Assembly (NCBI GenBank): GCA_947259485.1
Contig: CAMYLU010000005.1
Span: 72,714-136,713, forward strand
Direction: 5' to 3'
Origin: an uncultured Gammaproteobacteria bacterium
GTDB taxonomy: Bacteria > Pseudomonadota > Gammaproteobacteria > GCA-001735895
Length of the DNA stretch: 64,000 nucleotides
Positions 47,752 to 63,980 of the stretch are shown here, piece by piece (the first letter of the stretch is position 1; every line of letters starts with the position of its first letter). Made by a program: the position numbers and the translations under genes. Under the pieces are notes generated by a model. That model was given only the letters and a program-made list of their open reading frames with translations. It ran no database searches and was not told where the DNA came from.

Positions 47752-50700
47752 TTAGAGGTAATGCTTGTAACGCAGCGTGTAGTAAAGCATCGGAATGACG
47801 ACCAGTGTCAACAGGGTCGATATCAGGATGCCGAAGATCAACGCTATCGCCAGTCCATTGAAGATCGGATCATCAAGAATGAAAACTGCGCCCAGTATCG
47901 CCGCCAGCGCGGTCAATGCAATCGGCCGCGCCCGGACGGCGGCAGCCTGAATGACTGCTTCCTTGAAATCCATACCTTTACCCGATTGTTCGTTGATAAA
48001 ATCCACCAGCAGAATCGAGTTACGCACGATAATACCCGCGAGCGCTATCATGCCGATCATCGAGGTAGCGGTAAACTGTGCGCCGAGCAACGCGTTACCG
48101 GGCAATACCCCGATCACGGTGAGTGGAATCGGTGCCATGATCACCAGGGGCACGGAGTAGGATTTGAACTGCGCGACTACGAGCAGGTAAATCATCAACA
48201 AACCGACCGAGTAAGCGATGCCCATATCGCGAAAGGTTTCATAGGTCACCTGCCACTCTCCATCCCATTTCAGGCTGTATTGATATGGATTATCGGGTTG
48301 GTTGATCATGTACTGCTCGATTGGCGCGTCCAGCAATGGTGACACAATTTCCTGCTTCAACTCCGTTAATACGTCAAACATACCGTATAGCGGACTATCG
48401 AGTTCGCCGGCCATATCGGCGGTGACAAATACCACCGGCAGCAGGTCTTTATGATAAATACTGTTCTCGTTGCGGGTTTCCAGCAGGGTTACTACTTCGG
48501 ATAGCGGGACCAGGTCCCGGTTCGCCGAGCGCAGCTTGAGTGACAGGATACTGGTGATGTCCGCCTTGTCACCTTCCGCCAGTTCGAGCCGCAGCGGAAC
48601 CGGGTATTTCTGGTTATCACGATGCAGGTAACCCACGTCCTCGCCATCGACCAGGGTAGCAACGGCATTCGCGATAACCGCCTGGTTCAGACCGAGGCGC
48701 GTCGCCTTGGCACGATCGATTGCCAGCACCAAGCGTTCGGATTCCGATTCGCTGCTATCGTCAATATCGACGATACCGGGGGTGCGCTTCAGCACCTTGC
48801 CGATATCTCTTGCAACCTGTATCTGCCCCGCATAGTCGATACCATAGACCTCCGCGACCAATGGCGCCTGCACTGGCGGGCCGGGCGGGACCTCGACAAT
48901 CTTGACATTCGCACCATGGGCATTGCCGATGCGCTGTAACGGTTCGCGTAACGCCAGGGCAATATCGTGGCTCTTGCGATCACGCTCCGACTTGTGCTGC
49001 AGGTTAACCTGGATATCAGACAGGTTTGAAGCTGCACGCAGGTAATACTGGCGTACCAGGCCGTTGAAATTAATCGGCGCAGCGGTACCGACATAACCCT
49101 GGTAATCGGTGACCTCGGGTACGGTCGCAATCCAGTTGCCCAGTTCGGTGATCACCCGCGCATTCTGCTCCAGGCTGCTGCCCTCGGGCATATCGACAAT
49201 GATCTGGACCTCCGATTTGTTATCAAACGGCAACATCTTCAACACCACCAGTTTGAATCCGGCGAGGCTTAGCGAGCCCAGGATCAATAAAATGATTACC
49301 AGTAACAGTAACCAGCGATTACGCCTTCCGCGGACATCGTCCAGTAACGGGTCGAACAAGCGTTTGAATAGCGGGTATAGAGGCTGACCGGCAGCAGGTT
49401 CCGCCGCGGTGGTATGGGGTTTCCGTCCCAGCAATTTCAAACTGAGCCAGGGCGTTACCACGAAGGCCACGGCCAGCGAGATCAGCATACCAATACTGGC
49501 ATTGATCGGGATCGGGCTCATGTACGGCCCCATTAAGCCGGTTACGAAGGCCATCGGCAGCAGCGCCGCAACCACGGCGAAGGTCGCCAGTATGGTGGGC
49601 CCGCCAACCTCATCGACGGCGAGTGGGATCGCTTCGACCAGGCTGTTTTTACCCAGTTGCATGTGCCGGTGGATGTTCTCGACCACGACAATGGCGTCGT
49701 CGACAAGGATCCCGATCGAAAAGATCAGTGCGAACAATGAAACACGGTTCAGGGTAAAACCCCAGGCCCAGGACGCAAACAGTGTCATCGCCAGCGTGAC
49801 CACGATCGCCACTCCGACGATAACGGCCTCTCGCAAGCCGAGCGTAACCACAACCAGCAACACCACGACTGCGGTTGCTAACACCAGCTTTTGAATCAGG
49901 GTCAGGGCTTTTTCGTTGGCGGTCGCTCCGTAATTACGCGTCACCGTGACTTCGACCCCTTCGGGGATCACGATCCCGCGCAGTTGATCGATACGACCAA
50001 TCACTTCATCGGCCACCTCGATCGCATTACTGCCCGGTTTCTTCGCAATCGCAAGCGTCACCGCGGGGAATTGACCTTGCACACTAATACCCTTGTCAGT
50101 AGCCGCCGGGCCGGTACCGAACCAGACATATTGGTCGGCCTGCGATGGCGTGATTTCGATGGTAGCGATATCGCCAAGCGCAATTGGAACGCCATCGGAT
50201 AGTCCAATGATGAGATCCTGGATTTCCGCAGCCTCGCTCAGGAAGGTGCCGGACTGCAGGTTGATTTCAAGATTGTCCCGCACCAGTTTACCGGCATCGC
50301 GTGACTGGTTCGCGGCAAAAATTCCAGCCTTGACCTGTTCCAGGTCAATATTGAATCCAGCCAGCTTTACCGGATCGAGCAGTATTCTGATCGCCTGGCG
50401 GGTGCCGCCGATCGAGTAAATATCACGTGTGCCGGGTACGCGTTTGAGCTCGGCCTCGAGTGAATGTGCAACCTGCAGCAACTCGATGCCGCCGCGCTGC
50501 GGATCCTGGCTCCACAACGTCAATGCCACGATCGGTACATCGTCGATACCTCTTGGCTTTATGATTGGCTGCCCGACACCCATGTTGGCGGGCAACCAGT
50601 CGGCATTGGAAAACACCTTATTGTAAAGCCGCACGATGGCCTGCGAGCGTTCTTCACCCACCTCGAACTGGACTGTCAGGATAGCAATACCGGGTTTCGA

Positions 50701-50970
50701 TACCGAGTAGACATGTTCGATACCGGCAATTTCGGAGAGCACCTGCTCGGCGGGCGTGCTAACCACCTGTTCCACTTCGTATGCGGTCGCTCCGGGAAAC
50801 GGCACGAATACATTGGCGAAGGTAACATTGATTTGCGGTTCTTCCTCGCGCGGCGTCACCATTACCGCAAAAACACCCATTAACAGTCCGATCAGCGCCA
50901 ACAGCGGAGTGATCTCGGACTGTAGAAAGGTTTTCGCCACCCAACCGGATGGCCCCAGCGACTGGCTCAT
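47752..50970 (-). CDS. RND efflux transporter permease (AcrB/CzcA superfamily)
   Basis: 1072 aa with 12 TM helices and two large periplasmic loops. The start overlaps the MFP stop by 4 nt. Confidence 0.9.
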   Translation of the reverse strand: MSQSLGPSGWVAKTFLQSEITPLLALIGLLMGVFAVMVTPREEEPQINVTFANVFVPFPGATAYEVEQVVSTPAEQVLSEIAGIEHVYSVSKPGIAILTVQFEVGEERSQAIVRLYNKVFSNADWLPANMGVGQPIIKPRGIDDVPIVALTLWSQDPQRGGIELLQVAHSLEAELKRVPGTRDIYSIGGTRQAIRILLDPVKLAGFNIDLEQVKAGIFAANQSRDAGKLVRDNLEINLQSGTFLSEAAEIQDLIIGLSDGVPIALGDIATIEITPSQADQYVWFGTGPAATDKGISVQGQFPAVTLAIAKKPGSNAIEVADEVIGRIDQLRGIVIPEGVEVTVTRNYGATANEKALTLIQKLVLATAVVVLLVVVTLGLREAVIVGVAIVVTLAMTLFASWAWGFTLNRVSLFALIFSIGILVDDAIVVVENIHRHMQLGKNSLVEAIPLAVDEVGGPTILATFAVVAALLPMAFVTGLMGPYMSPIPINASIGMLISLAVAFVVTPWLSLKLLGRKPHTTAAEPAAGQPLYPLFKRLFDPLLDDVRGRRNRWLLLLVIILLILGSLSLAGFKLVVLKMLPFDNKSEVQIIVDMPEGSSLEQNARVITELGNWIATVPEVTDYQGYVGTAAPINFNGLVRQYYLRAASNLSDIQVNLQHKSERDRKSHDIALALREPLQRIGNAHGANVKIVEVPPGPPVQAPLVAEVYGIDYAGQIQVARDIGKVLKRTPGIVDIDDSSESESERLVLAIDRAKATRLGLNQAVIANAVATLVDGEDVGYLHRDNQKYPVPLRLELAEGDKADITSILSLKLRSANRDLVPLSEVVTLLETRNENSIYHKDLLPVVFVTADMAGELDSPLYGMFDVLTELKQEIVSPLLDAPIEQYMINQPDNPYQYSLKWDGEWQVTYETFRDMGIAYSVGLLMIYLLVVAQFKSYSVPLVIMAPIPLTVIGVLPGNALLGAQFTATSMIGMIALAGIIVRNSILLVDFINEQSGKGMDFKEAVIQAAAVRARPIALTALAAILGAVFILDDPIFNGLAIALIFGILISTLLTLVVIPMLYYTLRYKHYL

Positions 50971-52007
50971 TGGGCAGTATCCAACTGGCGCTTGTGTTCG
51001 ATTCCGGCGCGCACCGGGTCGAGCGCAATAGTTTCACCTTCACCGAGCCCGGCAAGAATCTCAACCTGGTCGCCAATTCGATTGCCGGGACGCACCTGTC
51101 GAAAAGAGAGTCTCCCCGCCGCATCAAGCACATAAACCGCGTTGACTTCCGACCGCGAAACCAGCGCACGTTGTGGCAATAACAGGCGCTCGGTGGCACC
51201 GATTTTCAGCGCCACCTTGACCAGCATACCCGGAAACAGTCCCTGTTTCATTTCAGGCAAGTCCAGTCGTACGGGAAAACTATGGTTCTGCGGATTCGCG
51301 AATGGATGAATGGTAATCCTGGTGACTTCGACCGAGCGACCATCCTCGAGCAGAACCACACGGGCGAGGCCATGAGTTCGCAGCCCACCGATAATCGACT
51401 GCGGCACGTTGGCGCTGACACGCAACTGCCCTAGCGCATAGCCGGTCATGATTGGCTGGCCCGGGGCAACGCTTTCTCCCGGTTCGACATGACGTTCAAC
51501 CACTACCCCGCTATAGGGTGCGCGCACCACGGTGTAGCCTAACTGCTCTTCAGCCTGGGCAAGATTAGCTTGCGCCGAAGCCGCGCGAGCCTTTGCCGCC
51601 TTCAGGTTAGCGCTGGCCTTGTCGAGTACTGCCTGTGATATCAGTTTTTGCTTGTGTAAATCCTGGTTACGTCTGAATTCAAGCTGCGTATCCTGCAGAT
51701 TGGCCTTTGCCTCGTCGAGTGCAGCGATCGCTTTTTGCTGCTGTGCGCGGTATTCCCGGTCCCTTATGGTCAACACCACCTGGCCCTGCTCGACGAAATC
51801 ATCGACGTCAAAGTTGACGCTTTCTATTTTGCCGACAACCTCGGCGGATAGCGTCGCCTGTTGACGTGCCTCGACAACACCATCAACCCAATACTCGAGC
51901 GGCATTGCCATCCGTTTCGAGGTTATGGTCTGCAATTGTTCTGCCGTATGTCCCGGACCTGCAAACAATCCCAGGCACAAGACGATAATCATAGGCACGA
52001 GCCGCAT
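50967..52007 (-). CDS. RND efflux periplasmic adaptor (membrane fusion protein, HlyD/AcrA family)
   Basis: Signal peptide, a coiled-coil hairpin (the LDKASANLKAAKARAASAQANLAQAEEQL region) and beta-barrel domains. Confidence 0.85.
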   Translation of the reverse strand: MRLVPMIIVLCLGLFAGPGHTAEQLQTITSKRMAMPLEYWVDGVVEARQQATLSAEVVGKIESVNFDVDDFVEQGQVVLTIRDREYRAQQQKAIAALDEAKANLQDTQLEFRRNQDLHKQKLISQAVLDKASANLKAAKARAASAQANLAQAEEQLGYTVVRAPYSGVVVERHVEPGESVAPGQPIMTGYALGQLRVSANVPQSIIGGLRTHGLARVVLLEDGRSVEVTRITIHPFANPQNHSFPVRLDLPEMKQGLFPGMLVKVALKIGATERLLLPQRALVSRSEVNAVYVLDAAGRLSFRQVRPGNRIGDQVEILAGLGEGETIALDPVRAGIEHKRQLDTAQ

Positions 52008-52135: not shown

Positions 52136-53932
52136 ATGCAAATATTCAGAATCCTGATAACAACATCCCTGGCACTGATCATCAACCTCGGGGCGACTGG
52201 TGCCTGGGCATCCAACCAGCTCGCCGGTCATCCCTCGCCTTACCTGGCGTTACATGCCGGGGATCCGGTCAACTGGCGGCCATGGCAGGCCGAGGTTTTT
52301 AAAGATGCCAGGCAGGACAAGCGCCTGGTATACGTTTCGGTCGGTTATTTTTCCTGCCACTGGTGCCACGTGATGCAACAGGAAAGTTACCAGGATGAGG
52401 GTATCGCGAAGCTTCTTAACCAGAGCTACATCGCGGTTAAGGTCGATCGTGAACTCGACCCGGACCTGGATCGGCGCCTGATCGAATTTGTCGAGAAGAC
52501 ACGCGGTTCGGCTGGCTGGCCGTTGAACGTATTTCTGACCCCAGATGGTTACCCGGTGGCTGGTTTCACCTACTTGCCGAGCGATGTTTTCGCCAACGTA
52601 CTGCAGGAGCTCGATGATGCCTGGCAAAAAGACCAGGATCAGCTTGCCGACGCCGCACGTAACTTTTTTGAAACCCAGATGCAGGACAAGGAAAACCAGG
52701 CTTTCCTGGCACCACAAATTCCGTCCCAGGAGATGATTGGCGCATTTGTCTCGCAAACCATGCTGCTAGCAGACGAATTGCAAGGAGGCATCGGAAATGC
52801 CAGCAAGTTCCCTAACGTACCGCAGCTCGATACGCTGCTCACAATCATCCAGCAGAATCCGGAGCTCGATAAGGATGTTGTCGATTTCGTGCAACTAACC
52901 TTGCACATGATGGCGTCGAAAAACCTGCAAGATCACGTCAACAGCGGCTTTTTTCGCTACACCACCGATCCAGACTGGTATACGCCCCACTTCGAGAAAA
53001 TGCTCTACGACAATGCTCAGCTTGCAATGCTTTATTTGCGAGCACATGAACTCTGGCCCGACCAGGGCCATGCTGACATCGCCAGGCGCACACTCGATTT
53101 TGTCGAGGCCAGTTTAAAACATCCCGATGGTGGATATATGTCGAGCCTGTCCGCGGTAGACGTCGACAACAAGGAAGGCGGCGCCTATTTCTGGAGCCGC
53201 GAGCAGCTTTTTGCAGTGCTTGAAGACCAGGAAGTAGAATACCTGTTAAAACTATGGCCTGTCGAAACCAAAAACGGCGAGTTCCTGATTAAACCACTGA
53301 CCGGCCAGGGCGCTTCCGGCGAATCGGCAAAAAATCTGACCATCCTCGAGAAACTGCGATCTCGAGGCAGCAAAAGCATGCCAATTGATGACAAACGCCT
53401 GGCCAGCTGGAACGCGATGATGCTGGATGCGCTGACCACGGCATCAGAAATCGATTCGCGCTATGCCGAACGCGCCCGCACCCTGTTTCGATTCATGCGC
53501 AAAAATTTCTATCGCGCCGACTCGCTGATTCGATTTGCCGGCAATGCCGAGACTGCCGACGCGGTACTCGAAGACTATGCCCAGGTAGCTAAGTCCTTTC
53601 TCAATTTCGGCAAACGTTTTGAAAGCGAAGATGCTACCCGGCTTGCGATGCAACTGACTGAAAGTGCTTATGCTCTGTTTCTGAAAGATGGCCGCTGGCA
53701 ACAGAAAGCCCAGTCTTTAATCCCTATTTCGCCGGGAAAATGGATCATTCCCGACCAGGTATTTTTTTCACCGATGACCCTCTGGATAGAGGTGGCACTT
53801 GAGGCTCCAGGACTGAATCCGGCGGTGCGTGCCGGCGCTATTGAAATGCTGCAACGGGCAACTCGTGAAATGCTCGACTCCCCTTACCTTTACGGCAGTT
53901 TCATCATGCTGCGCGCAAATAACCAGGGTTAA
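52136..53932 (+). CDS. Thioredoxin-domain protein of the DUF255/YyaL (SPATA20-like) family with an N-terminal signal peptide
   Basis: The YVSVGYFSCHWCHVM thioredoxin-like motif is followed by a six-hairpin glycosidase-like domain. An N-terminal cleavable signal (AWA) is present. Confidence 0.7.
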   Translation: MQIFRILITTSLALIINLGATGAWASNQLAGHPSPYLALHAGDPVNWRPWQAEVFKDARQDKRLVYVSVGYFSCHWCHVMQQESYQDEGIAKLLNQSYIAVKVDRELDPDLDRRLIEFVEKTRGSAGWPLNVFLTPDGYPVAGFTYLPSDVFANVLQELDDAWQKDQDQLADAARNFFETQMQDKENQAFLAPQIPSQEMIGAFVSQTMLLADELQGGIGNASKFPNVPQLDTLLTIIQQNPELDKDVVDFVQLTLHMMASKNLQDHVNSGFFRYTTDPDWYTPHFEKMLYDNAQLAMLYLRAHELWPDQGHADIARRTLDFVEASLKHPDGGYMSSLSAVDVDNKEGGAYFWSREQLFAVLEDQEVEYLLKLWPVETKNGEFLIKPLTGQGASGESAKNLTILEKLRSRGSKSMPIDDKRLASWNAMMLDALTTASEIDSRYAERARTLFRFMRKNFYRADSLIRFAGNAETADAVLEDYAQVAKSFLNFGKRFESEDATRLAMQLTESAYALFLKDGRWQQKAQSLIPISPGKWIIPDQVFFSPMTLWIEVALEAPGLNPAVRAGAIEMLQRATREMLDSPYLYGSFIMLRANNQG

Positions 53933-54185: not shown

Positions 54186-55589
54186 ATGAAAAAATTTCAA
54201 TTAATTCTTTGTTATGGTCTCGCACTGACGCTTTCAGGTTGCGCTAGCACGGAAAAGGCCGAGCCTGTACCGATCGCTGAATTGAAAGCAGCGGTCGCAG
54301 AGGTTGCCGGATTAATGAAAGAAGCCGATATAGTTCAGGCCGACCTGCTATCCCACGATGAATATGTGAAAGGTTCGAATTACCTGGCGAAAGCCCGCCG
54401 AAGCATGTCGGGCTACCAGCAAGCGGATTACATCCTTGAAAAATCCGCCCTCGGCAAAGCACAATTTCAGCAAGCGTTGAAAAATTCCAAGACCCGAACT
54501 CCCAACGCTTTTCGCATACTCGAGGCCAGGCATTCTGCACTCGACGCCGGTTTGAAAAACAGTGAAGATTTGGCAGATGCACTGGCAGATGTTGATGACG
54601 ATTTAAGGGATGAAACAGACGACTTTGCTCGAGCCCTTGAACCGAAAGAGTTCTCTGAATTTCAAAAAAAATACTTCGCGCTAGAGATTGAAGCGATCCA
54701 GTTCAGGGAGCTCGATGCTGTTAAAGATGCCATACAGAAAGCAGTCAGACAGGATGCAGAGGACCTCGCTCCGGAATCGTTGAGGGCAGCTCTACTGGAC
54801 GTTAGCGAAGCTGAGAATTTGATTGCTCAAAGTCCTCGAAACCCCAGGATTCACGAGGACAGTGTAACCTGGGCGACGGAAAGTTCGGTTTTGCTGACCG
54901 ATGTGATGGACGTAATTCTAGACGCCCCGGGAACGCCTGAGGATATTGCGTTAAAAATAGTTAAACAAAATCGGGAGTTAGCCAAACTTTCTGAAGACGT
55001 CGGTAGCCTGGAACAAAACCTGAAGTCGACCCAGTCGAGCTTGATGGAAAAGGAAGGCGTACTTAAACAGCAAAACCAGGAACTGGAGTCAACCCGCTCA
55101 AATTTGCAGGAAACAGAAAGTGCACTGCTTTTACAAAACCAGGAGCTGGAGAGGTCCTCCACGCAGGTCAGGTTCCAGAAAGCGATGGACCAGGCGGTGC
55201 AAGAATTTCCTGATGATGAAGCCGCGGTCTATCAGCAAGGCAGTAAACTGATCTTCAGGCTCAAGAAAATGAATTTCGCAACAGGGTCTGCAACCATTCC
55301 AGCAGCTTCAAAGTCAATGTTAAAAAAGGTCAATGACATCATAAGATTTATCGGCGCTGAAATAGTTGCAGTGGAAGGACATACCGACTCAGTCGGCGCG
55401 GACAAATTAAATAAAGATCTTTCAACCAAGAGAGCAATCTCGGTAGCAGACTACCTGGCGTCACTTGCGGGTGGTTACAAAATTGGCTATATCGGTTATG
55501 GCGAGTCCAGGCCCATTGCCTCCAACGAAACAAACGAAGGACGCGCGATAAATCGCCGCGTAGACCTGGTGGTAACCGCCAAGAAATAG
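54186..55589 (+). CDS. OmpA-family peptidoglycan-binding lipoprotein with a long coiled-coil
   Basis: Lipobox LTLSGC. A long central coiled-coil is followed by a C-terminal OmpA-like domain (VEGHTDSVGADKLNKDLSTKRAISVADYL...RRVDLVV). Confidence 0.75.
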   Translation: MKKFQLILCYGLALTLSGCASTEKAEPVPIAELKAAVAEVAGLMKEADIVQADLLSHDEYVKGSNYLAKARRSMSGYQQADYILEKSALGKAQFQQALKNSKTRTPNAFRILEARHSALDAGLKNSEDLADALADVDDDLRDETDDFARALEPKEFSEFQKKYFALEIEAIQFRELDAVKDAIQKAVRQDAEDLAPESLRAALLDVSEAENLIAQSPRNPRIHEDSVTWATESSVLLTDVMDVILDAPGTPEDIALKIVKQNRELAKLSEDVGSLEQNLKSTQSSLMEKEGVLKQQNQELESTRSNLQETESALLLQNQELERSSTQVRFQKAMDQAVQEFPDDEAAVYQQGSKLIFRLKKMNFATGSATIPAASKSMLKKVNDIIRFIGAEIVAVEGHTDSVGADKLNKDLSTKRAISVADYLASLAGGYKIGYIGYGESRPIASNETNEGRAINRRVDLVVTAKK

Positions 55590-55599
55590 TTGCCGGATT

Positions 55600-56097
55600 T
55601 CAACCACCCTCCTGGTCCGCGCTCGATTTGTTTGACTTGATATCGCGCTGTATGGATTCGAATTCGATTTCGGTCTTGTTAGCCGAACCACCGACTCTCG
55701 GCTTGCCCACAAACCGCTCTCCCTGTTGCTGTCGCCGCATCGTATCGTCAACCTGTTGGTGCAGTAGCTTTTTATAAGGCAATCGAAATGAGCGCGGCAC
55801 GAGTTGATTCCCGTCGAGATCCCTGACCCAGAGGTAAATAGTGCCGGATTCATCGCTTTTCAGATTCGGTTCAACCACGATACTGCTAATCAACTCAAAG
55901 TTCCGCGGTATTCCGTTTGCGGCCGGCCAACCAAGATAGTCCTGTAATGCATTGTAATGCCAGAGATAGAATCCAAAACACAGGAATGCCAGCACCAGCT
56001 TGAGTCCGGGACCAATATCACTTCTGAATAGTGCGAGTAGTACCAGGAACAGCAAAAATACGTAAGCCAGGGCCAATGCAAGTAATGAAGCGATCAC
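55600..56097 (-). CDS. Membrane protein (2 TM plus soluble tail), third gene of the ExbB-like module
   Basis: Hydrophobic N-terminus. Its 4-nt overlap with the upstream gene suggests translational coupling. Confidence 0.5.
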   Translation of the reverse strand: MIASLLALALAYVFLLFLVLLALFRSDIGPGLKLVLAFLCFGFYLWHYNALQDYLGWPAANGIPRNFELISSIVVEPNLKSDESGTIYLWVRDLDGNQLVPRSFRLPYKKLLHQQVDDTMRRQQQGERFVGKPRVGGSANKTEIEFESIQRDIKSNKSSADQEGG

Positions 56098-56735
56098 AGT
56101 GATTGCTCCGATTCCGGTGCAAGCTGTTCGGGATCAAGCCGATACGGAGTCAGTATCTTGGATAACTGGTTCATGGCTACGATTTCACCGTTGCCATCGA
56201 GCTCGAAGCGCAACACCGTCTTTTCATCATCCACCTTGTCCAGTACGAGTTGATCGATATACACCAACCGCAGCACCGGGTTAACCTTTTCGATCTTGAC
56301 CACCGTTTTAACCGGTTGCTTGCTCACCGACTGGTAGTAATGCAGGTTGACTATGTATTCTCCCGAAATAATGCCGCGAATCGTAACCACTTCCTGGTTG
56401 ATCGGATGCACCACTTTCTTGCCGTTGATCATGACCGTGTCATTCAGATCGCCGCGGTCGTCGCGATCCAGGTTCAGCCAACCGGCTTCTTTACGCAAGT
56501 AGGAAACCGTTTCCCGGTAAGGGTCCTGAACCCACAGGTCGACATCATCGGGCTGATCCTCGGGCCAGCTCACGGTGATGATGTACTCCGCCTTGTAATT
56601 AATATTGCCAAGTTTGGCGATCGGATTCATGAACAGTATCGCAATGAAAAATAACAGGGTAAAACCAAGCAGGGTATTGAAAAGCAGATCGGTAAACGGA
56701 TCTGCCAACTGGTGATGGCGACGGCTTATTCTCAC
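56094..56735 (-). CDS. Single-pass membrane protein with an ExbD/TolR-like N-terminal TM segment and an unrelated 170-aa periplasmic domain
   Basis: DPFTDLLFNTLLGFTLLFFIAILFM resembles the ExbD/TolR TM region. 4-nt overlaps on both sides. Confidence 0.5.
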   Translation of the reverse strand: MRISRRHHQLADPFTDLLFNTLLGFTLLFFIAILFMNPIAKLGNINYKAEYIITVSWPEDQPDDVDLWVQDPYRETVSYLRKEAGWLNLDRDDRGDLNDTVMINGKKVVHPINQEVVTIRGIISGEYIVNLHYYQSVSKQPVKTVVKIEKVNPVLRLVYIDQLVLDKVDDEKTVLRFELDGNGEIVAMNQLSKILTPYRLDPEQLAPESEQSL

Positions 56736-57385
56736 CGGGACGTGACCTGGTAGGTTTGTTCGCGCACGTCATCGAGCAGGTTGTCTACACTCCAGTCGAG
56801 CAGCTGGTACTTGATGTTTAGCAGCACCCCGCAGCTCATACCGGTCAGGGTTGTAAATAATGCGACCTTCATCCCCCCGCTCATCTGCGTCAGCAGTTTC
56901 TGCATCACGTTGATATCGATACTGTTAAGGTCTACCAGCGAACCCAGCATGAAAATAAAACCGATCACGGTTCCGAGCAGGCCCAGCTTGAGCATCAAAT
57001 CGGCAACCACGTAACCAAACCTGAATTGCCCACGGCAGCGACCGTCAAGCACCTCGATCAGCATCTCGCTGGAGTCGTCGCTTTCGCTGCTCGGCCGCCG
57101 CAGTAGCGAAAAGTAGCGCTGTACGTTACTGCGGAGTTTGCCCGTGGAGGTATCTGCGTTCAGGTCATTGCTTTCGATCGACAGGGTGTATGACACCAGC
57201 ATCACGTGTAAACTGGCGACGAGGTAAATCCCCAGGATGGCTCGCGAAATGAAGCTGTAGTCCTCGGCCAACAGAACCTGCAATAATCCCGCGTCGGTCA
57301 GCAGGTAAATAATAAAGAGCTCAATACCGAGCAGGCCGCTGGATATCAGTAACAGGCCGAAAGGTTTGTCGATAATCAATTTCAT
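56732..57385 (-). CDS. MotA/TolQ/ExbB-family proton-channel protein
   Basis: C-terminal LGLLGTVIGFIFMLGSL...MSGGMKVALFTTLTGMSCGVLLNIKY matches the TolQ/ExbB TM2-TM3 signature. Size is 217 aa. Confidence 0.7.
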   Translation of the reverse strand: MKLIIDKPFGLLLISSGLLGIELFIIYLLTDAGLLQVLLAEDYSFISRAILGIYLVASLHVMLVSYTLSIESNDLNADTSTGKLRSNVQRYFSLLRRPSSESDDSSEMLIEVLDGRCRGQFRFGYVVADLMLKLGLLGTVIGFIFMLGSLVDLNSIDINVMQKLLTQMSGGMKVALFTTLTGMSCGVLLNIKYQLLDWSVDNLLDDVREQTYQVTSR

Positions 57386-57571
57386 CGCAATTGTGTCTCC
57401 CCTCTTGCATGCATATTAAACCCAGAAAAGAGCGCTGCAACCGTAAACTCTCAAAAATTCGATCGCCGCGCGGATATATACCCAATAACCCCACGGTCTA
57501 TCCCAGAATAGCTATTCGTATATAAGGATCTACTAATATAATGGTGCTTCAACTTTAAGGGGGATCTAAAC

Positions 57572-58192
57572 ATGATCAAGCAATATATCGTTACATTAAT
57601 ACTTTTTTTAGGCCTGACCAGCGGCAGCGCGTTCGCAGCCGATACACCGGCCACTAACCCGGCTCAATCAGCCGAAATGACCAACCCGTTTGCCTGGATG
57701 GGCATGATGAATGCCGGGGTTCCGAACGTTCAACACCTGAACCTGGCACGTCCTGAAGGCTACCAGGTCTTCATGAACCCGATGAACTACGGACAATTCA
57801 TGAACCCGGCTACTTACGGCCAGTTCATGACACCACAGTTCTACATGCAGTTTGCCGATCCAAATAACATGATGGCCTGGATGAATCCCGCGGCTTATAG
57901 CGCATACATGAATCCGGCTTCTTACATGCAGATGATGAATCCAATGGCATATATGCAATTCATGAATCCCGGCACCTACATGCAGGGTATGAACCCGGCT
58001 AACTACCAGGTATTCATGGATCCCAATACATACATGTCCTGGATGAACCCGAATGCCTACATTCCGGGTGGGACTGCCAGTGCGGGTTATGCCAACCCGG
58101 CTGCAGGCTTTAACTGGTTCGATCCAAGTGCGTGGACCGGCATGATGACGCCACAAGCGCAATTACAGCCGCAGCAGCAACCACAGCAGTAA
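57572..58192 (+). CDS. Secreted Met/Asn/Pro/Tyr-rich tandem-repeat protein (about 12 copies of (F/M)MNPxxY(M/G)Q) with a Gln-rich tail
   Basis: Signal peptide MIKQYIVTLILFLGLTSGSAFA. Repeats FMNPMNYGQFMNPATYGQFM...YMNPASYMQMMNPMAYMQFMNPGTYMQGMNPANYQVFMDPNTYMSWMNP are read directly. The C-terminus is QLQPQQQPQQ. Confidence 0.7.
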   Translation: MIKQYIVTLILFLGLTSGSAFAADTPATNPAQSAEMTNPFAWMGMMNAGVPNVQHLNLARPEGYQVFMNPMNYGQFMNPATYGQFMTPQFYMQFADPNNMMAWMNPAAYSAYMNPASYMQMMNPMAYMQFMNPGTYMQGMNPANYQVFMDPNTYMSWMNPNAYIPGGTASAGYANPAAGFNWFDPSAWTGMMTPQAQLQPQQQPQQ

Positions 58193-60507: not shown

Positions 60508-61755
60508 CTAAACGCCGGCGGACTTGGTAGCCGTGCCGTGCCAGCGTTCGACGACATCACGCATTGTAAAGCAGCGTTCGAGCTGGGCTAAATCGGGTGC
60601 TTCGAGGCCAGCGTCAGTCATGTAATCGCGCCAGGTTGCCGTCACCTCGAGTACCGCAGCGCCGATTTCGTGGGCGAGTTCGTCGGCCACACCCATGCGC
60701 TGCGCTGCTGCCTGGATATTGTCGGCGGTTGGGGTGCTCCCGAAAGGACCTATCGCGATGGCATGCGACCCCTGCAGGCTGAGCTGAGGCACGATATCGT
60801 AGCCGGGAGAGAACGAGTAATCCGAAACCGACGATTGCTTCATGAAAGCGTGGTTGCGCAGGTGGTCGTCGGTGTTACCGATCGCGACGTTGAACAGCAT
60901 GCGGCGAAACACGACCGCGCCAAGGTCGCTGGTCAGGTGCCCGATGCGCTTGCCGAGTTGGGTAAGACCGGGATACGACATCGTCGATTCGTCGATCTCG
61001 GTGATGTCGAATTTGTTGATCAGACTCGCTACCGAAACCAGGTGATGCTGTTCGTCGGGGGACTGGTCGAAGCGTTCCACCAGTAGCACCGGCCCGCGAC
61101 CGGTTTCCGTGAGGTCTACATCCGGCACCTCGATGCCGGCTTCGCGCGCCATACGCATCGATGCAAGCTCGACACGGCACATATCGACCAGGTCCGAATC
61201 GCGGTTGAATTTCGCGATCCATTCGCGGCCGTCGTGTTCGATCAGTGACTTGGGCCGCGCGCCGCCGATGCCGCTACCGTGGAAAAAGAAAGGCTCCAAT
61301 GCGCGGTCGACTTCGTTGCCGGCCTCGATATCATCGGCAATATGTTGCAAATGTACCAGGTTCTCGAACGGTCGTTCTGGCGGTGGCCGCACCGGGTCGT
61401 CGATATTCGGCGTGAAGTGCAATGCGCCCACGCCTTCACCCGAGGCGGCGAGCAGGAATTCCACTTGTGTGACCGGCGGTGGTTGGCGGGTTTTGGTGAG
61501 CCAACGCCTACCCCACTCGTCGGGCCCTGCGTCGATCAGAACGCCGAACATTGCCGGCGTGTCGCGGGTGCGGTGTTTAACATGGATGTCTCCGTTCAAG
61601 GGCAGGTTGATCGGGTCGAGGGCAAATGATTGCGGATGATTGATATAGGCTTTCGCGTACTTGAAGCGGCCGGCCTTGTCGTCAACAATCAATTGACCGG
61701 CGAGCAAGATCGTGCCGTCGCCGAGGTCCGCATGGATGAAGAGCTTCTCCAGCAT
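60508..61755 (-). CDS. hipA: HipA-family serine/threonine kinase toxin
   Basis: HipA N-terminal coupling domain. P-loop-like GSGIGGARPKSL. A catalytic region NTDDHLRNHAF matches the HipA D-x-H-x-x-N motif. Confidence 0.8.
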   Translation of the reverse strand: MLEKLFIHADLGDGTILLAGQLIVDDKAGRFKYAKAYINHPQSFALDPINLPLNGDIHVKHRTRDTPAMFGVLIDAGPDEWGRRWLTKTRQPPPVTQVEFLLAASGEGVGALHFTPNIDDPVRPPPERPFENLVHLQHIADDIEAGNEVDRALEPFFFHGSGIGGARPKSLIEHDGREWIAKFNRDSDLVDMCRVELASMRMAREAGIEVPDVDLTETGRGPVLLVERFDQSPDEQHHLVSVASLINKFDITEIDESTMSYPGLTQLGKRIGHLTSDLGAVVFRRMLFNVAIGNTDDHLRNHAFMKQSSVSDYSFSPGYDIVPQLSLQGSHAIAIGPFGSTPTADNIQAAAQRMGVADELAHEIGAAVLEVTATWRDYMTDAGLEAPDLAQLERCFTMRDVVERWHGTATKSAGV

Positions 61756-62105
61756 CAGATATCGAACTCGTCGGCATCCGACGCGAGTGGTGCGCGGGCG
61801 CGTTTACGCATGGCATTACGACCGAGAGCCTCACCCAGGGTATCGTCGCCACGGGCGATGACTCGATCGAACGCCGTCGGCAGTCCGAGCACGTCGAGCA
61901 GCGCAAGGTAAGCACCGACCGTGATGTGCGGTGAGCCGGCCTCGACTTTTCTGATCGAGCTCTCGGACAACCCGGCCTTGGTCGCGGCATCCGCCTGGGT
62001 CCAGTTTCTGAGCAAGCGGGCTTCTTTCAAGCGCGCACCGAGAGCGGCCAATGAACCCAGGGCTGCATCGCTGATCAAGGCATAGGAAAGTGAGCTTCTC
62101 GGCAT
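61755..62105 (-). CDS. hipB: XRE-family HTH antitoxin (HipB-like)
   Basis: HTH region LKEARLLRNWTQADAATKAGLSESSIRKVEAG. The stop overlaps the hipA start. Confidence 0.7.
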   Translation of the reverse strand: MPRSSLSYALISDAALGSLAALGARLKEARLLRNWTQADAATKAGLSESSIRKVEAGSPHITVGAYLALLDVLGLPTAFDRVIARGDDTLGEALGRNAMRKRARAPLASDADEFDI

Positions 62106-62546: not shown

Positions 62547-63980
62547 TCAGGGGATGCCGGCCTTTGCGGCGGATTGCACGATCAATTCGATATCATTCGG
62601 CCGCCTGTAATAGTCGAAAATTGTCGAATAAGATTCCCGGTTTTCCCAGGGTCGCTCCTTCAACCGCAAGTCTATCGCTGCCTGCGCCTGTTCCCGGTTG
62701 TCTAAGGCGCCATGAATAAATACGGTGAAGTTTCTGATGTCCTCAACGTTGCCCTCGTGCTCGGCGTCCACGAGCGCTTTATTGTATTGTCCCAGAAAGA
62801 AATAGATGCGTGCCCGACCGCCGTAATATGCCGTCGGTGGCGTGGTATGCCGACCGATAGCGCGGTTGATAGATTCGAGCGCCGCGGCATGATTGCCGGC
62901 ATAGGATAAAACTGTAGCCAGGTCCGCGTGCAGCTGCGGATTGGCCGGATTGATGTTGACTGCGTTTTTGACCGAGGCAATGCCAATGTCGTGCGACCCG
63001 GTCAGCGCCTGCAGCAGGCCGAGGATGGCCAGTGCTTCGTCGTTGGCGGGGTCCAGTTCCAGCGCCTTGCCGGCGTTTTGATACACCATTTTTCTCCACG
63101 CAAGCGTTGTTTCGTCGGCGCGATCGCGCAGCTGCCAGTTGCCTAGGGCTTCGCGCGCGAGGCCGGTGTAGGCGGCGATGAACTGGGGGTCGAGTTCGAT
63201 TGCAACGTTATAAAACTCAACGATTCGGGCGCTACCTTTAGTACCGCGGCGATTGAGTCGCCGGTGTTCGGCGCGCAGAAAATAATCATAGGCTTCGAGG
63301 TTGGTGGTTTTGCGCTTGCTAACCGACTTGCCTTGTGTCGCCACCCCAAGGTTCTTCAAGATGTCGCCAATGATCTGGTCCTGCAGTGCAAAAATATTGT
63401 CGACCTTGTCGTCGAAGCGATTGACCCAGACCTCGCGGTTGCTTTGTGCATCGACCAGCTGCACGTTGACGCGGATTTCGTCCAGGTTCTGGCGCACGCT
63501 GCCCTGCACCAGGTAACCCACATTCAGCTGCCGGGCTATGTCTTGCGGGGCAATCTTCTTGTCCTTGAACTGGAAACTCGAATGCCGCGGGATCACTTGC
63601 AATTCCTTGACCTTTGATAAATCGGTGATCAGATCGTCGGTCAGGCCATCGGCAAAAACACCCTGCCCCGGGTCGTTGCTGCGGTTCTTGAACGGCAGGA
63701 TCGCGAGCGACGAAGCATTCGGGGTATAACTTTGCGGCAGGCTATTGGATTGCGCGACCGGTGGTGGGCTCGTGCTAAAAAACAGCATGAACCCGCCAAT
63801 CGTCAGGCCCACCGCGACAACCACGATGGCAAACATGACTAGCGGGCCGAATTTCAGTTCGGCGCCGGGAGACCTGATCTCGGGTTCGGTTGCTGGTGTG
63901 GGTTCGGGTTCGGCCTCCGCTACCGCGTCCGGCACCGGGATCGATGCGCCTGATTTGAGCGCGACGGAATAGGCGCGCAC
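62547..63980 (-). CDS. Membrane-anchored ILPF...DGLTDDLIT-domain plus TPR protein (paralogue 3; lacks the cyclase domain)
   Basis: A TM helix, then LAILPFKNRSNDPGQGVFADGLTDDLITDLSK...VRVNVQLVDAQSNREVWVNRFD, then TPR repeats. Same middle/TPR architecture as the two cyclase fusions. Confidence 0.65.
   Translation of the reverse strand: MRAYSVALKSGASIPVPDAVAEAEPEPTPATEPEIRSPGAELKFGPLVMFAIVVVAVGLTIGGFMLFFSTSPPPVAQSNSLPQSYTPNASSLAILPFKNRSNDPGQGVFADGLTDDLITDLSKVKELQVIPRHSSFQFKDKKIAPQDIARQLNVGYLVQGSVRQNLDEIRVNVQLVDAQSNREVWVNRFDDKVDNIFALQDQIIGDILKNLGVATQGKSVSKRKTTNLEAYDYFLRAEHRRLNRRGTKGSARIVEFYNVAIELDPQFIAAYTGLAREALGNWQLRDRADETTLAWRKMVYQNAGKALELDPANDEALAILGLLQALTGSHDIGIASVKNAVNINPANPQLHADLATVLSYAGNHAAALESINRAIGRHTTPPTAYYGGRARIYFFLGQYNKALVDAEHEGNVEDIRNFTVFIHGALDNREQAQAAIDLRLKERPWENRESYSTIFDYYRRPNDIELIVQSAAKAGIP

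What the first reader, a model, noticed from the sequence alone, without database searches (positions are those of the whole stretch)
54186..57571. ExbB/TolQ-like proton-channel protein in a three-gene overlapping module with two novel single-pass proteins, convergent with a coiled-coil OmpA lipoprotein
The module is 56732..57385 (MotA/TolQ/ExbB signature), 56094..56735 (ExbD-like TM helix but an unrelated 170-aa periplasmic domain) and 55600..56097 (2-TM protein). The three genes overlap by 4 nt each, which points to stoichiometric co-expression. It is not a canonical Tol-Pal, TonB-ExbBD or MotAB locus: there is no TonB, TolA or flagellar context. Facing it is a 467-aa lipoprotein with a very long coiled coil and an OmpA peptidoglycan-binding domain, the part a MotB/Pal-like stator would need. 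This could be an uncharacterised pmf-driven envelope machine. Stator-like modules have recently been co-opted for several functions, including defence systems such as Zorya, gliding motors and envelope-stress devices.
Basis: partly seen in the sequence, partly recalled or inferred. Interest (0 to 1): 0.6.

Follow-up and report, generated by a model that had tools for sequence, protein, structure and literature searches.

The report
New three-protein proton motor module
The three overlapping genes are real and form an undescribed, tightly conserved relative of the Tol/Ton/flagellar-stator proton motors, carried as a unit by hundreds of bacterial species and, unexpectedly, by many bacteriophages; the neighbouring OmpA lipoprotein is not part of it.

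The parts
56732..57385 (-). Gene A: 217-aa, 4-TM MotA/TolQ/ExbB-family channel subunit with a short (about 50 aa) cytoplasmic loop. Invariant residues are G135, G138, T139, A175, T179 and G182.
   Evidence: Pfam PF01618, 2.1e-9, above the cut-off. A family profile hits TolQ at 2e-6, Aquifex MotA at 2.5e-6, ZorA at 1e-2 and ExbB at 0.07. T139 and T179 align with the TolQ motifs GLFGTVWG and ALIATAIGL.
56094..56735 (-). Gene B: 213 aa. It has a basic N-terminus, a TM helix 13-36 with invariant Asp16 (like ExbD/TolR/MotB), a 14-residue linker, and a periplasmic beta-sandwich 51-189 with the invariant acidic cluster D64, D66, D90, D92, D93, D99, E115.
55600..56097 (-). Gene C: 165 aa. It has a TM hairpin (2-25, 30-55), a conserved GWP motif after TM2, a beta-beta-beta-alpha-beta-beta domain 67-149 (OB-like topology), and a disordered tail. 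The soluble domain is probably periplasmic.
57386..57571 (-). 186-nt upstream intergenic region of the trio, shared with the divergent gene 57572..58192. The RBS GAGGGGAG lies at 57404..57397.
   Evidence: Sequence read. No sigma-70-like site on the - strand and no Rfam match.
54186..55589 (+). Convergent OmpA-family lipoprotein (467 aa). It is a lineage-specific neighbour, not a conserved component.
   Evidence: Pfam OmpA 1e-16. Adjacent to the trio only in L004-L009; absent in L010-L012 and in every other locus.
52136..53932 (+). Secreted DUF255/Thioredox_DsbH protein (598 aa). It is a recurrent but non-universal neighbour of the trio.
   Evidence: Pfam 1e-53. It lies next to the trio in about 13-14 of 80 genome loci, in two different arrangements.

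Best explanation
A, B and C form a self-contained three-subunit machine of the MotA/TolQ/ExbB (5:2 ion-driven motor) class, and they constitute a new family of it. Shown: A is a bona fide MotA/TolQ/ExbB channel subunit that keeps the two conserved threonines. B carries the conserved helix aspartate that is the proton-accepting residue in MotB/ExbD/TolR (function of that residue from established knowledge). The three genes are translationally coupled and inherited as a unit in bacteria and phages. Inferred: A forms a pentamer around a B dimer. Protons pass from the periplasm via B-Asp16 and the A-Thr139/Thr179 ring and drive relative rotation. The TerD-like, probably Ca2+-binding, domains of B sit close to the periplasmic face because the linker is only about 14 residues. 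The hairpin of C docks on the lipid-facing surface of A, as the TonB/TolA helices do, and presents its small periplasmic domain. The work is therefore done on the periplasmic side near the inner membrane. Consistent with this, the cytoplasmic loop of A is variable and almost absent in phage versions. The target and physiological role are unknown; my guess is an envelope-directed role that phages also exploit during infection. The OmpA lipoprotein is an unrelated neighbour.
Confidence: 0.62

Rival explanations
1. A stator-like motor that uses the facing coiled-coil OmpA lipoprotein as its peptidoglycan anchor.
For: The OmpA gene is convergent, with only 10 nt between the stop codons. It is kept next to the trio in the closest relatives L004-L009. 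Its OmpA domain resembles the C-terminal domains of MotB and ZorB.
Against: The gene is absent from relatives whose B is 85-87% identical (L010-L012), from all more distant bacterial loci and from all viral loci; only 6 hits in 172 loci. It is on the opposite strand. As a lipoprotein it would be anchored in the outer membrane, not to the B helix.
Confidence: 0.04
2. An anti-phage defence or superinfection-exclusion device (Zorya-like sensor-motor, or a phage-borne exclusion system) that detects or blocks envelope penetration.
For: The best NCBIfam and PADLOC matches of A are ZorA models. The trio is common in phages, where early-expressed membrane proteins often mediate exclusion. In Rhizobium phages it lies among replication and early genes. 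TerD-fold proteins belong to ter operons, which established knowledge associates with phage and colicin resistance. A HipAB pair lies nearby.
Against: The ZorA matches score 25-28 bits, against cut-offs of 100-700 for the NCBIfam models (PADLOC gives no cut-offs), and cover only the shared TM3-TM4 core. There is no long ZorA tail. No ZorC/D/E-like or other effector gene is linked. Bacterial copies sit among housekeeping genes such as glnS, birA, tilS, accA and dnaE. B and C have no PADLOC hit.
Confidence: 0.15
3. Not a force-generating motor but a gated proton or cation conductance, or a divalent-cation (Ca2+/metal) stress module related in logic to Ter systems.
For: TerD-like fold with an invariant acidic cluster. 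Linkers are too short to reach distant targets. Some clades add a VWA-FHA protein, and ter operons also carry a VWA gene. The window holds a Met-rich secreted protein, an RND pump and a thioredoxin-like protein nearby.
Against: Every characterised member of the MotA/TolQ/ExbB class transduces force rather than transporting ions for their own sake. The metal theme of the neighbourhood is lineage-specific. There is no significant sequence link to TerD.
Confidence: 0.15
4. An ordinary ExbB-ExbD-TonB or TolQ-TolR-TolA energiser that is merely divergent.
For: Three-gene order of channel, Asp-helix protein and third membrane protein. Weak ExbD hits to the TM region in 2 of 55 family members.
Against: The domains of B and C match no ExbD/TolR, TonB_C or TolA model by sequence or fold. 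C has two TM helices and no Pro-rich or long helical spacer. No TonB-dependent receptor, TolB or Pal is linked. The same trio occurs in phages.
Confidence: 0.03

Closest known systems
TolQ-TolR-TolA (Tol-Pal motor)
   Same: A aligns best with TolQ (E 2e-6), including the GT and AT threonine motifs. B has a TolR-like helix with the conserved Asp. It is a three-gene operon with a third membrane protein.
   Different: A has an extra N-terminal TM helix (4 TM, like MotA). The periplasmic domain of B is TerD-like, not the TolR fold. C is a 2-TM hairpin with a small domain rather than a single-TM, long-spacer TolA. No TolB, Pal or CpoB is linked. The trio also occurs in phages.
ExbB-ExbD-TonB
   Same: Same superfamily for the channel subunit and an Asp-bearing partner helix. 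Weak ExbD TM hits in 2 of 55 members.
   Different: No ExbD periplasmic domain, no TonB C-terminal domain, and no TonB-dependent receptor nearby.
MotAB/PomAB flagellar stators
   Same: 4-TM topology of A. An Aquifex MotA match at 2.5e-6. An Asp in the B helix.
   Different: The cytoplasmic loop is short or absent, so there is no torque-generating interface. B has no plug or OmpA-like peptidoglycan-binding domain. No flagellar genes are nearby.
ZorAB of the Zorya anti-phage system
   Same: The best NCBIfam and PADLOC hits of A are ZorA models, over TM3-TM4 only.
   Different: A is 217 aa and has no long C-terminal tail. B lacks the ZorB peptidoglycan-binding domain. No ZorC/D/E genes are present. 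Scores are far below the NCBIfam family cut-offs.
TolQ-like pentamers paired with transpore-helix vWA proteins (PMC12204202, Mol Biol Evol 2025)
   Same: Same concept: a TolQ-like gene whose partner is not recognisable as TolR/ExbD but carries an Asp-containing transpore helix fused to an unrelated periplasmic domain.
   Different: There the fused domain is vWA and the partners come in heterologous pairs. Here it is a TerD-like beta-sandwich plus a separate 2-TM third subunit. The present family is not mentioned in that paper.
TerD family (tellurite-resistance, Ca2+-binding beta-sandwich; PDB 2kxt, 2qz7)
   Different: No significant sequence similarity. Known TerD proteins are soluble and not fused to a transpore helix. 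No terB, terC or telA genes are nearby.
GldLM/PorLM (type IX secretion and gliding motor)
   Same: A 5:2 motor whose dimeric subunit carries beta-sandwich periplasmic domains rather than a peptidoglycan-binding domain (from the literature, PMC9389320).
   Different: No sequence or fold match was obtained. GldM is long and spans the periplasm, and GldL is not a Pfam MotA_ExbB member.

Membership tests
MotA/TolQ/ExbB proton-channel superfamily (Pfam PF01618) | The channel subunit scores above the Pfam gathering threshold. | tested here: met
   A scores 37.6 bits against 22.9. Phage homologues score 23-34 bits against 22.9.
MotA/TolQ/ExbB proton-channel superfamily (Pfam PF01618) | Conserved pore-lining threonines in the last two TM helices (TolQ T145/T178 equivalents; residue numbers from memory). 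| tested here: met
   T139 and T179 are conserved at 98-100%. They align with TolQ GLFGTVWG and ALIATAIGL.
5:2 ion-driven motors (MotAB, ExbBD, TolQR, ZorAB) | A partner subunit with a single N-in TM helix bearing a conserved acidic residue. | tested here: met
   B has a basic N-terminus and helix 13-36. Asp16 is conserved at 99% and 100%.
5:2 ion-driven motors (MotAB, ExbBD, TolQR, ZorAB) | A5:B2 stoichiometry and pmf-dependent activity. | not testable with these tools
   No multimer prediction and no experiment was available.
ExbD/TolR family (Pfam PF02472) | The ExbD/TolR periplasmic domain. | tested here: not met
MotB/ZorB/Pal-type anchors | An OmpA-like peptidoglycan-binding domain on the B subunit, or a conserved partner carrying one. 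| tested here: not met
   B has none. The neighbouring OmpA lipoprotein occurs in only 6 of 172 loci.
TonB/TolA force transducers | A single TM helix with the SHLS motif, a long Pro-rich or helical spacer, and a TonB/TolA C-terminal domain. | tested here: not met
Zorya anti-phage system | ZorA with a long C-terminal tail, plus ZorB and ZorC/D (or ZorE/F/G) effectors in one operon. | tested here: not met
   A is 217 aa. ZorA models score 25 and 23 bits against NCBIfam cut-offs of 100 and 700. There are no effector genes in the window or in related loci.
TerD family (Pfam PF02342) | A sequence match to the TerD domain, including the Ca2+-binding motif. | tested here: not met
   No TerD model is among the Pfam matches listed at E up to 0.1 (the first 25 of 27 families shown). 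hhalign gives E 0.2-0.47.
TerD family (Pfam PF02342) | The TerD beta-sandwich fold. | tested here: met

The most novel reading that the evidence does not exclude
The trio is a previously unrecognised class of miniature pmf-driven rotary motor. Its dimeric axle carries a Ca2+-binding TerD-like domain, and it has been maintained for a long time in many phage lineages as well as in bacteria. Phages would use it early in infection to remodel or guard the host envelope, for example in superinfection exclusion, control of DNA entry or lysis timing. This would give the first phage-encoded 5:2 motor and possibly a mechanistic handle on the long-unexplained TerD fold.
Probability: 0.3. Interest if true: 0.85.

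Novelty: new variant of a known kind. Interest (0 to 1): 0.7.

Why it matters
Every characterised 5:2 motor (flagellar stators, Ton, Tol, gliding/T9SS, Zorya) has turned out to power a major envelope process. This trio adds a widespread family with two partner proteins that match no described family, a TerD-like axle domain and almost no cytoplasmic part. It is also encoded by many phages, including cultured Rhizobium phages. If the model holds, it defines a minimal motor convenient for structural work. It would also reveal a new way phages manipulate the energised membrane or envelope. Finally, it links the enigmatic TerD fold to a proton-driven machine. Cultured carriers (Azospirillum brasilense; Rhizobium phages RHph_N34 and P10VF) make it directly testable.

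Tried and rejected
- PADLOC, NCBIfam and PHROGs gave nothing for B or C, and only sub-threshold ZorA core matches for A.
- Profile searches of the PDB with the B family gave only marginal PPC/subtilisin jelly-roll hits.
- hhalign of the B family against a 2-sequence and then a 9-sequence TerD alignment was not significant.
- The afdb50 fold library was unavailable. BFVD gave no annotated match.
- The first genome scan, with a 55-sequence alignment, failed for lack of conserved words. A single-protein viral scan with P0356 found nothing.
- T4-type replication genes of phage RHph_N34 were not found in the IMG/VR loci, so those phages are not close relatives of it.
- Exact look-ups of the window's own B protein and of P0389 (100% identical to C) found no contig on record, so the source genome was not identified.
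- There is no Rfam element and no promoter-like site on the coding (-) strand upstream of the trio.
- Seven completed literature searches found no description of the family.
- The OmpA-anchor model and the ordinary Ton/Tol reading were rejected on distribution and domain content.
Full report
**Observation**

I call them A (56732..57385, 217 aa), B (56094..56735, 213 aa) and C (55600..56097, 165 aa). Both junctions read GTGA, so a GTG start overlaps the preceding TGA stop. A GAGGGGAG ribosome-binding site lies 11 nt before the ATG of A.

The facing plus-strand gene, read from the ATG at 54186, encodes a 467-aa protein. It has an LSGC lipobox and a C-terminal OmpA domain (Pfam 1e-16). Its stop codon is 10 nt from the stop of C. 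I did not test the claimed coiled coil directly.

A passes the Pfam MotA_ExbB gathering threshold (37.6 against 22.9 bits). B and C match nothing in Pfam, NCBIfam or PADLOC. The surrounding genes are a DUF255 thioredoxin-like protein, an RND pump with its membrane-fusion protein, a universal stress protein, an FAD oxidoreductase, a HipA/HTH pair and a TPR protein. There is no TonB, TolA, TonB-dependent receptor or flagellar gene.

**The three proteins**

*A.* A profile of 24 family members hits solved TolQ (E 2e-6), Aquifex MotA (2.5e-6), ZorA (1e-2) and ExbB (0.07). The family-invariant T139 and T179 align with the threonines in the TolQ motifs GLFGTVWG and ALIATAIGL. From memory, these are the pore-lining T145 and T178.

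A has four TM helices: a TolQ-like three-helix core plus an N-terminal helix, as in MotA. Its cytoplasmic loop varies in length and is almost absent in phage versions.

*B.* B has a basic N-terminus and a TM helix with Asp16. This residue is conserved in 99% of bacterial and 100% of viral sequences. It corresponds to the proton-accepting Asp of MotB, ExbD and TolR (established knowledge).

The sandwich carries an essentially invariant acidic cluster: D64, D66, D90, D92, D93, D99 and E115. Sequence methods do not link it to TerD. Among the Pfam matches listed for 55 family members there is no TerD model, and hhalign gives E 0.2.

A non-significant collinear alignment does place DDVDLW opposite TerD's DLDASA, and HLDRDDLG opposite its Ca2+-binding loop. 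I therefore call the domain TerD-like in fold. Ca2+ binding is inferred, not shown.

Across the family the N-terminus has no Lys or Arg, and the TM1-TM2 loop has about two. This suggests that the soluble domain faces the periplasm.

**Distribution**

B has 3651 relatives in the 90%-identity database, none named or carrying a Pfam domain. In the exhaustive search it has 1760 clusters at 50% identity with E up to 1e-3.

Most are uncultured Gammaproteobacteria. The closest are sediment MAGs and the Olavius algarvensis Gamma 3 symbiont.

With iterated HMMs, A, B and C were found in that order on one strand in 86 of 90 bacterial loci. The exceptions are mostly truncated contigs. No other gene is universally linked.

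The OmpA lipoprotein is adjacent only where B is at least 89% identical (L004-L009). It is missing at 85-87% identity (L010-L012), where C is followed directly by the DUF255 gene, and it is absent from all other loci.

DUF255 recurs next to the trio in about 13-14 loci, in two arrangements. Another clade has YkuD-DUF302-A-B-C-VWA/FHA. Flanking genes are often housekeeping genes such as glnS, birA, tilS, accA and dnaE.

**Phages**

A relative at 41% identity lay among DNA polymerase, DnaB and RecA genes. A scan of IMG/VR then found 228 viral contigs encoding a B relative. In 79 of the 80 loci kept, the full A-B-C trio is present.

The same loci carry portal, large terminase, ClpP-type head protease and HNH genes. 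A nucleotide-sugar epimerase or dehydratase follows the trio in 24 of 83 loci.

GenBank phage isolates confirm the finding. Twenty-three Rhizobium phage records carry B. In the two inspected, RHph_N34 (Pootjesviridae) and the 68-kb RHph_N3_19, it lies in the middle of a three-gene run among replication and early genes. In RHph_N34 these are gp145-147. All are annotated hypothetical.

The phage A proteins are 113-159 aa and still pass Pfam MotA_ExbB.

Viral B sequences are 41-51% identical to the sampled bacterial ones and fall into several deep clusters. They are therefore not recent captures from these bacteria.

A cultured bacterial carrier also exists. An Azospirillum brasilense chromid has the trio, unannotated in the PLSDB table.

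**Interpretation**

The shown facts fit a pmf-driven 5:2-type motor:
- a true MotA/TolQ/ExbB subunit with the conserved threonines;
- a partner with the transpore-helix aspartate;
- translational coupling of the three genes;
- strict co-inheritance with a third membrane protein.

Several steps are inferred. These are the A5B2 stoichiometry, docking of the C hairpin on the outside of A (by analogy with TonB and TolA), and a periplasmic output close to the inner membrane. The last rests on the short linkers and the dispensable cytoplasmic loop of A.

The physiological role is not established. Housekeeping surroundings and periplasmic neighbours in bacteria, together with repeated retention in phages, point to an envelope-directed function that is also useful during infection.

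I consider four rivals:
- a Zorya-like defence or exclusion device (0.15);
- a gated conductance or cation-stress module with Ter-like logic (0.15);
- a merely divergent Ton or Tol energiser (0.03).

The last two are contradicted by the distribution and the domain content.

**Comparison with what is known**

The nearest described idea is the TolQ-like pentamer paired with transpore-helix vWA proteins (PMC12204202). That paper notes that many 5:2 motors remain to be discovered. The survey of MotAB relatives (PMC12505986) describes 'generic ion transporters' with compact B subunits.

In the parts of these two papers that I read, neither mentions a TerD-like B subunit, the C protein or phage-encoded copies. 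Seven completed literature searches found nothing on this family.

**Verdict**

I rate this a new variant of a known kind. Interest 0.7.

Noticed in passing
window 57572-58192 (+): A secreted 206-aa protein made of Met/Asn/Pro/Tyr-rich repeats (FMNPxxY), divergently transcribed from gene A. It is conserved beside the trio in the nearest relatives (L004-L012, L015) and has no family match. Met-rich periplasmic repeats might bind metal.
   Followed up: partly
window 52136-53932 (+); L001 5509-7353; L062 4514-6310: A secreted DUF255/Thioredox_DsbH protein lies next to the trio in about 13-14 of 80 genome loci. It is either co-directional just upstream of A or convergent downstream of C. This may be a functional link.
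   Followed up: partly
L087 6045-10697: In another gammaproteobacterial clade the trio sits in an apparent operon YkuD (L,D-transpeptidase fold) - DUF302 - A - B - C - VWA/FHA membrane protein. Classical ter operons also carry a VWA gene (L174 8326-9567).
   Followed up: partly
viral loci, e.g. L124 4780-5814; L138 6327-9953: In 24 of 83 viral loci a nucleotide-sugar epimerase or GDP-mannose-dehydratase-like gene directly follows the trio. The large terminase and portal genes lie about 5-7 kb downstream in a subset.
   Followed up: partly
window 60508-62105 (-): A HipA-like kinase (HipA_C plus Couple_hipA) with an overlapping upstream HTH (HipB-like) gene. This looks like a type II toxin-antitoxin pair.
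   Followed up: no
window 47752-52007 (-): An AcrB-family RND pump with a CusB/HlyD-type membrane-fusion protein whose gene overlaps it by 4 nt. No outer-membrane factor gene is adjacent.
   Followed up: no
L012 6346-7004; L010 6762-8467: In the Olavius algarvensis Gamma 3 symbiont, gene A is split into two ORFs. In L010 the DUF255 gene is split. These may be pseudogenes or sequencing errors.
   Followed up: no
window 55589-55600: The convergent OmpA gene and gene C have stop codons only 10 nt apart, and no terminator-like hairpin was found between them.
   Followed up: partly
window 62547-63980 (-): A 477-aa TPR protein with a sub-threshold TolB N-terminal domain match (20.9 against 22.4 bits).
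   Followed up: no
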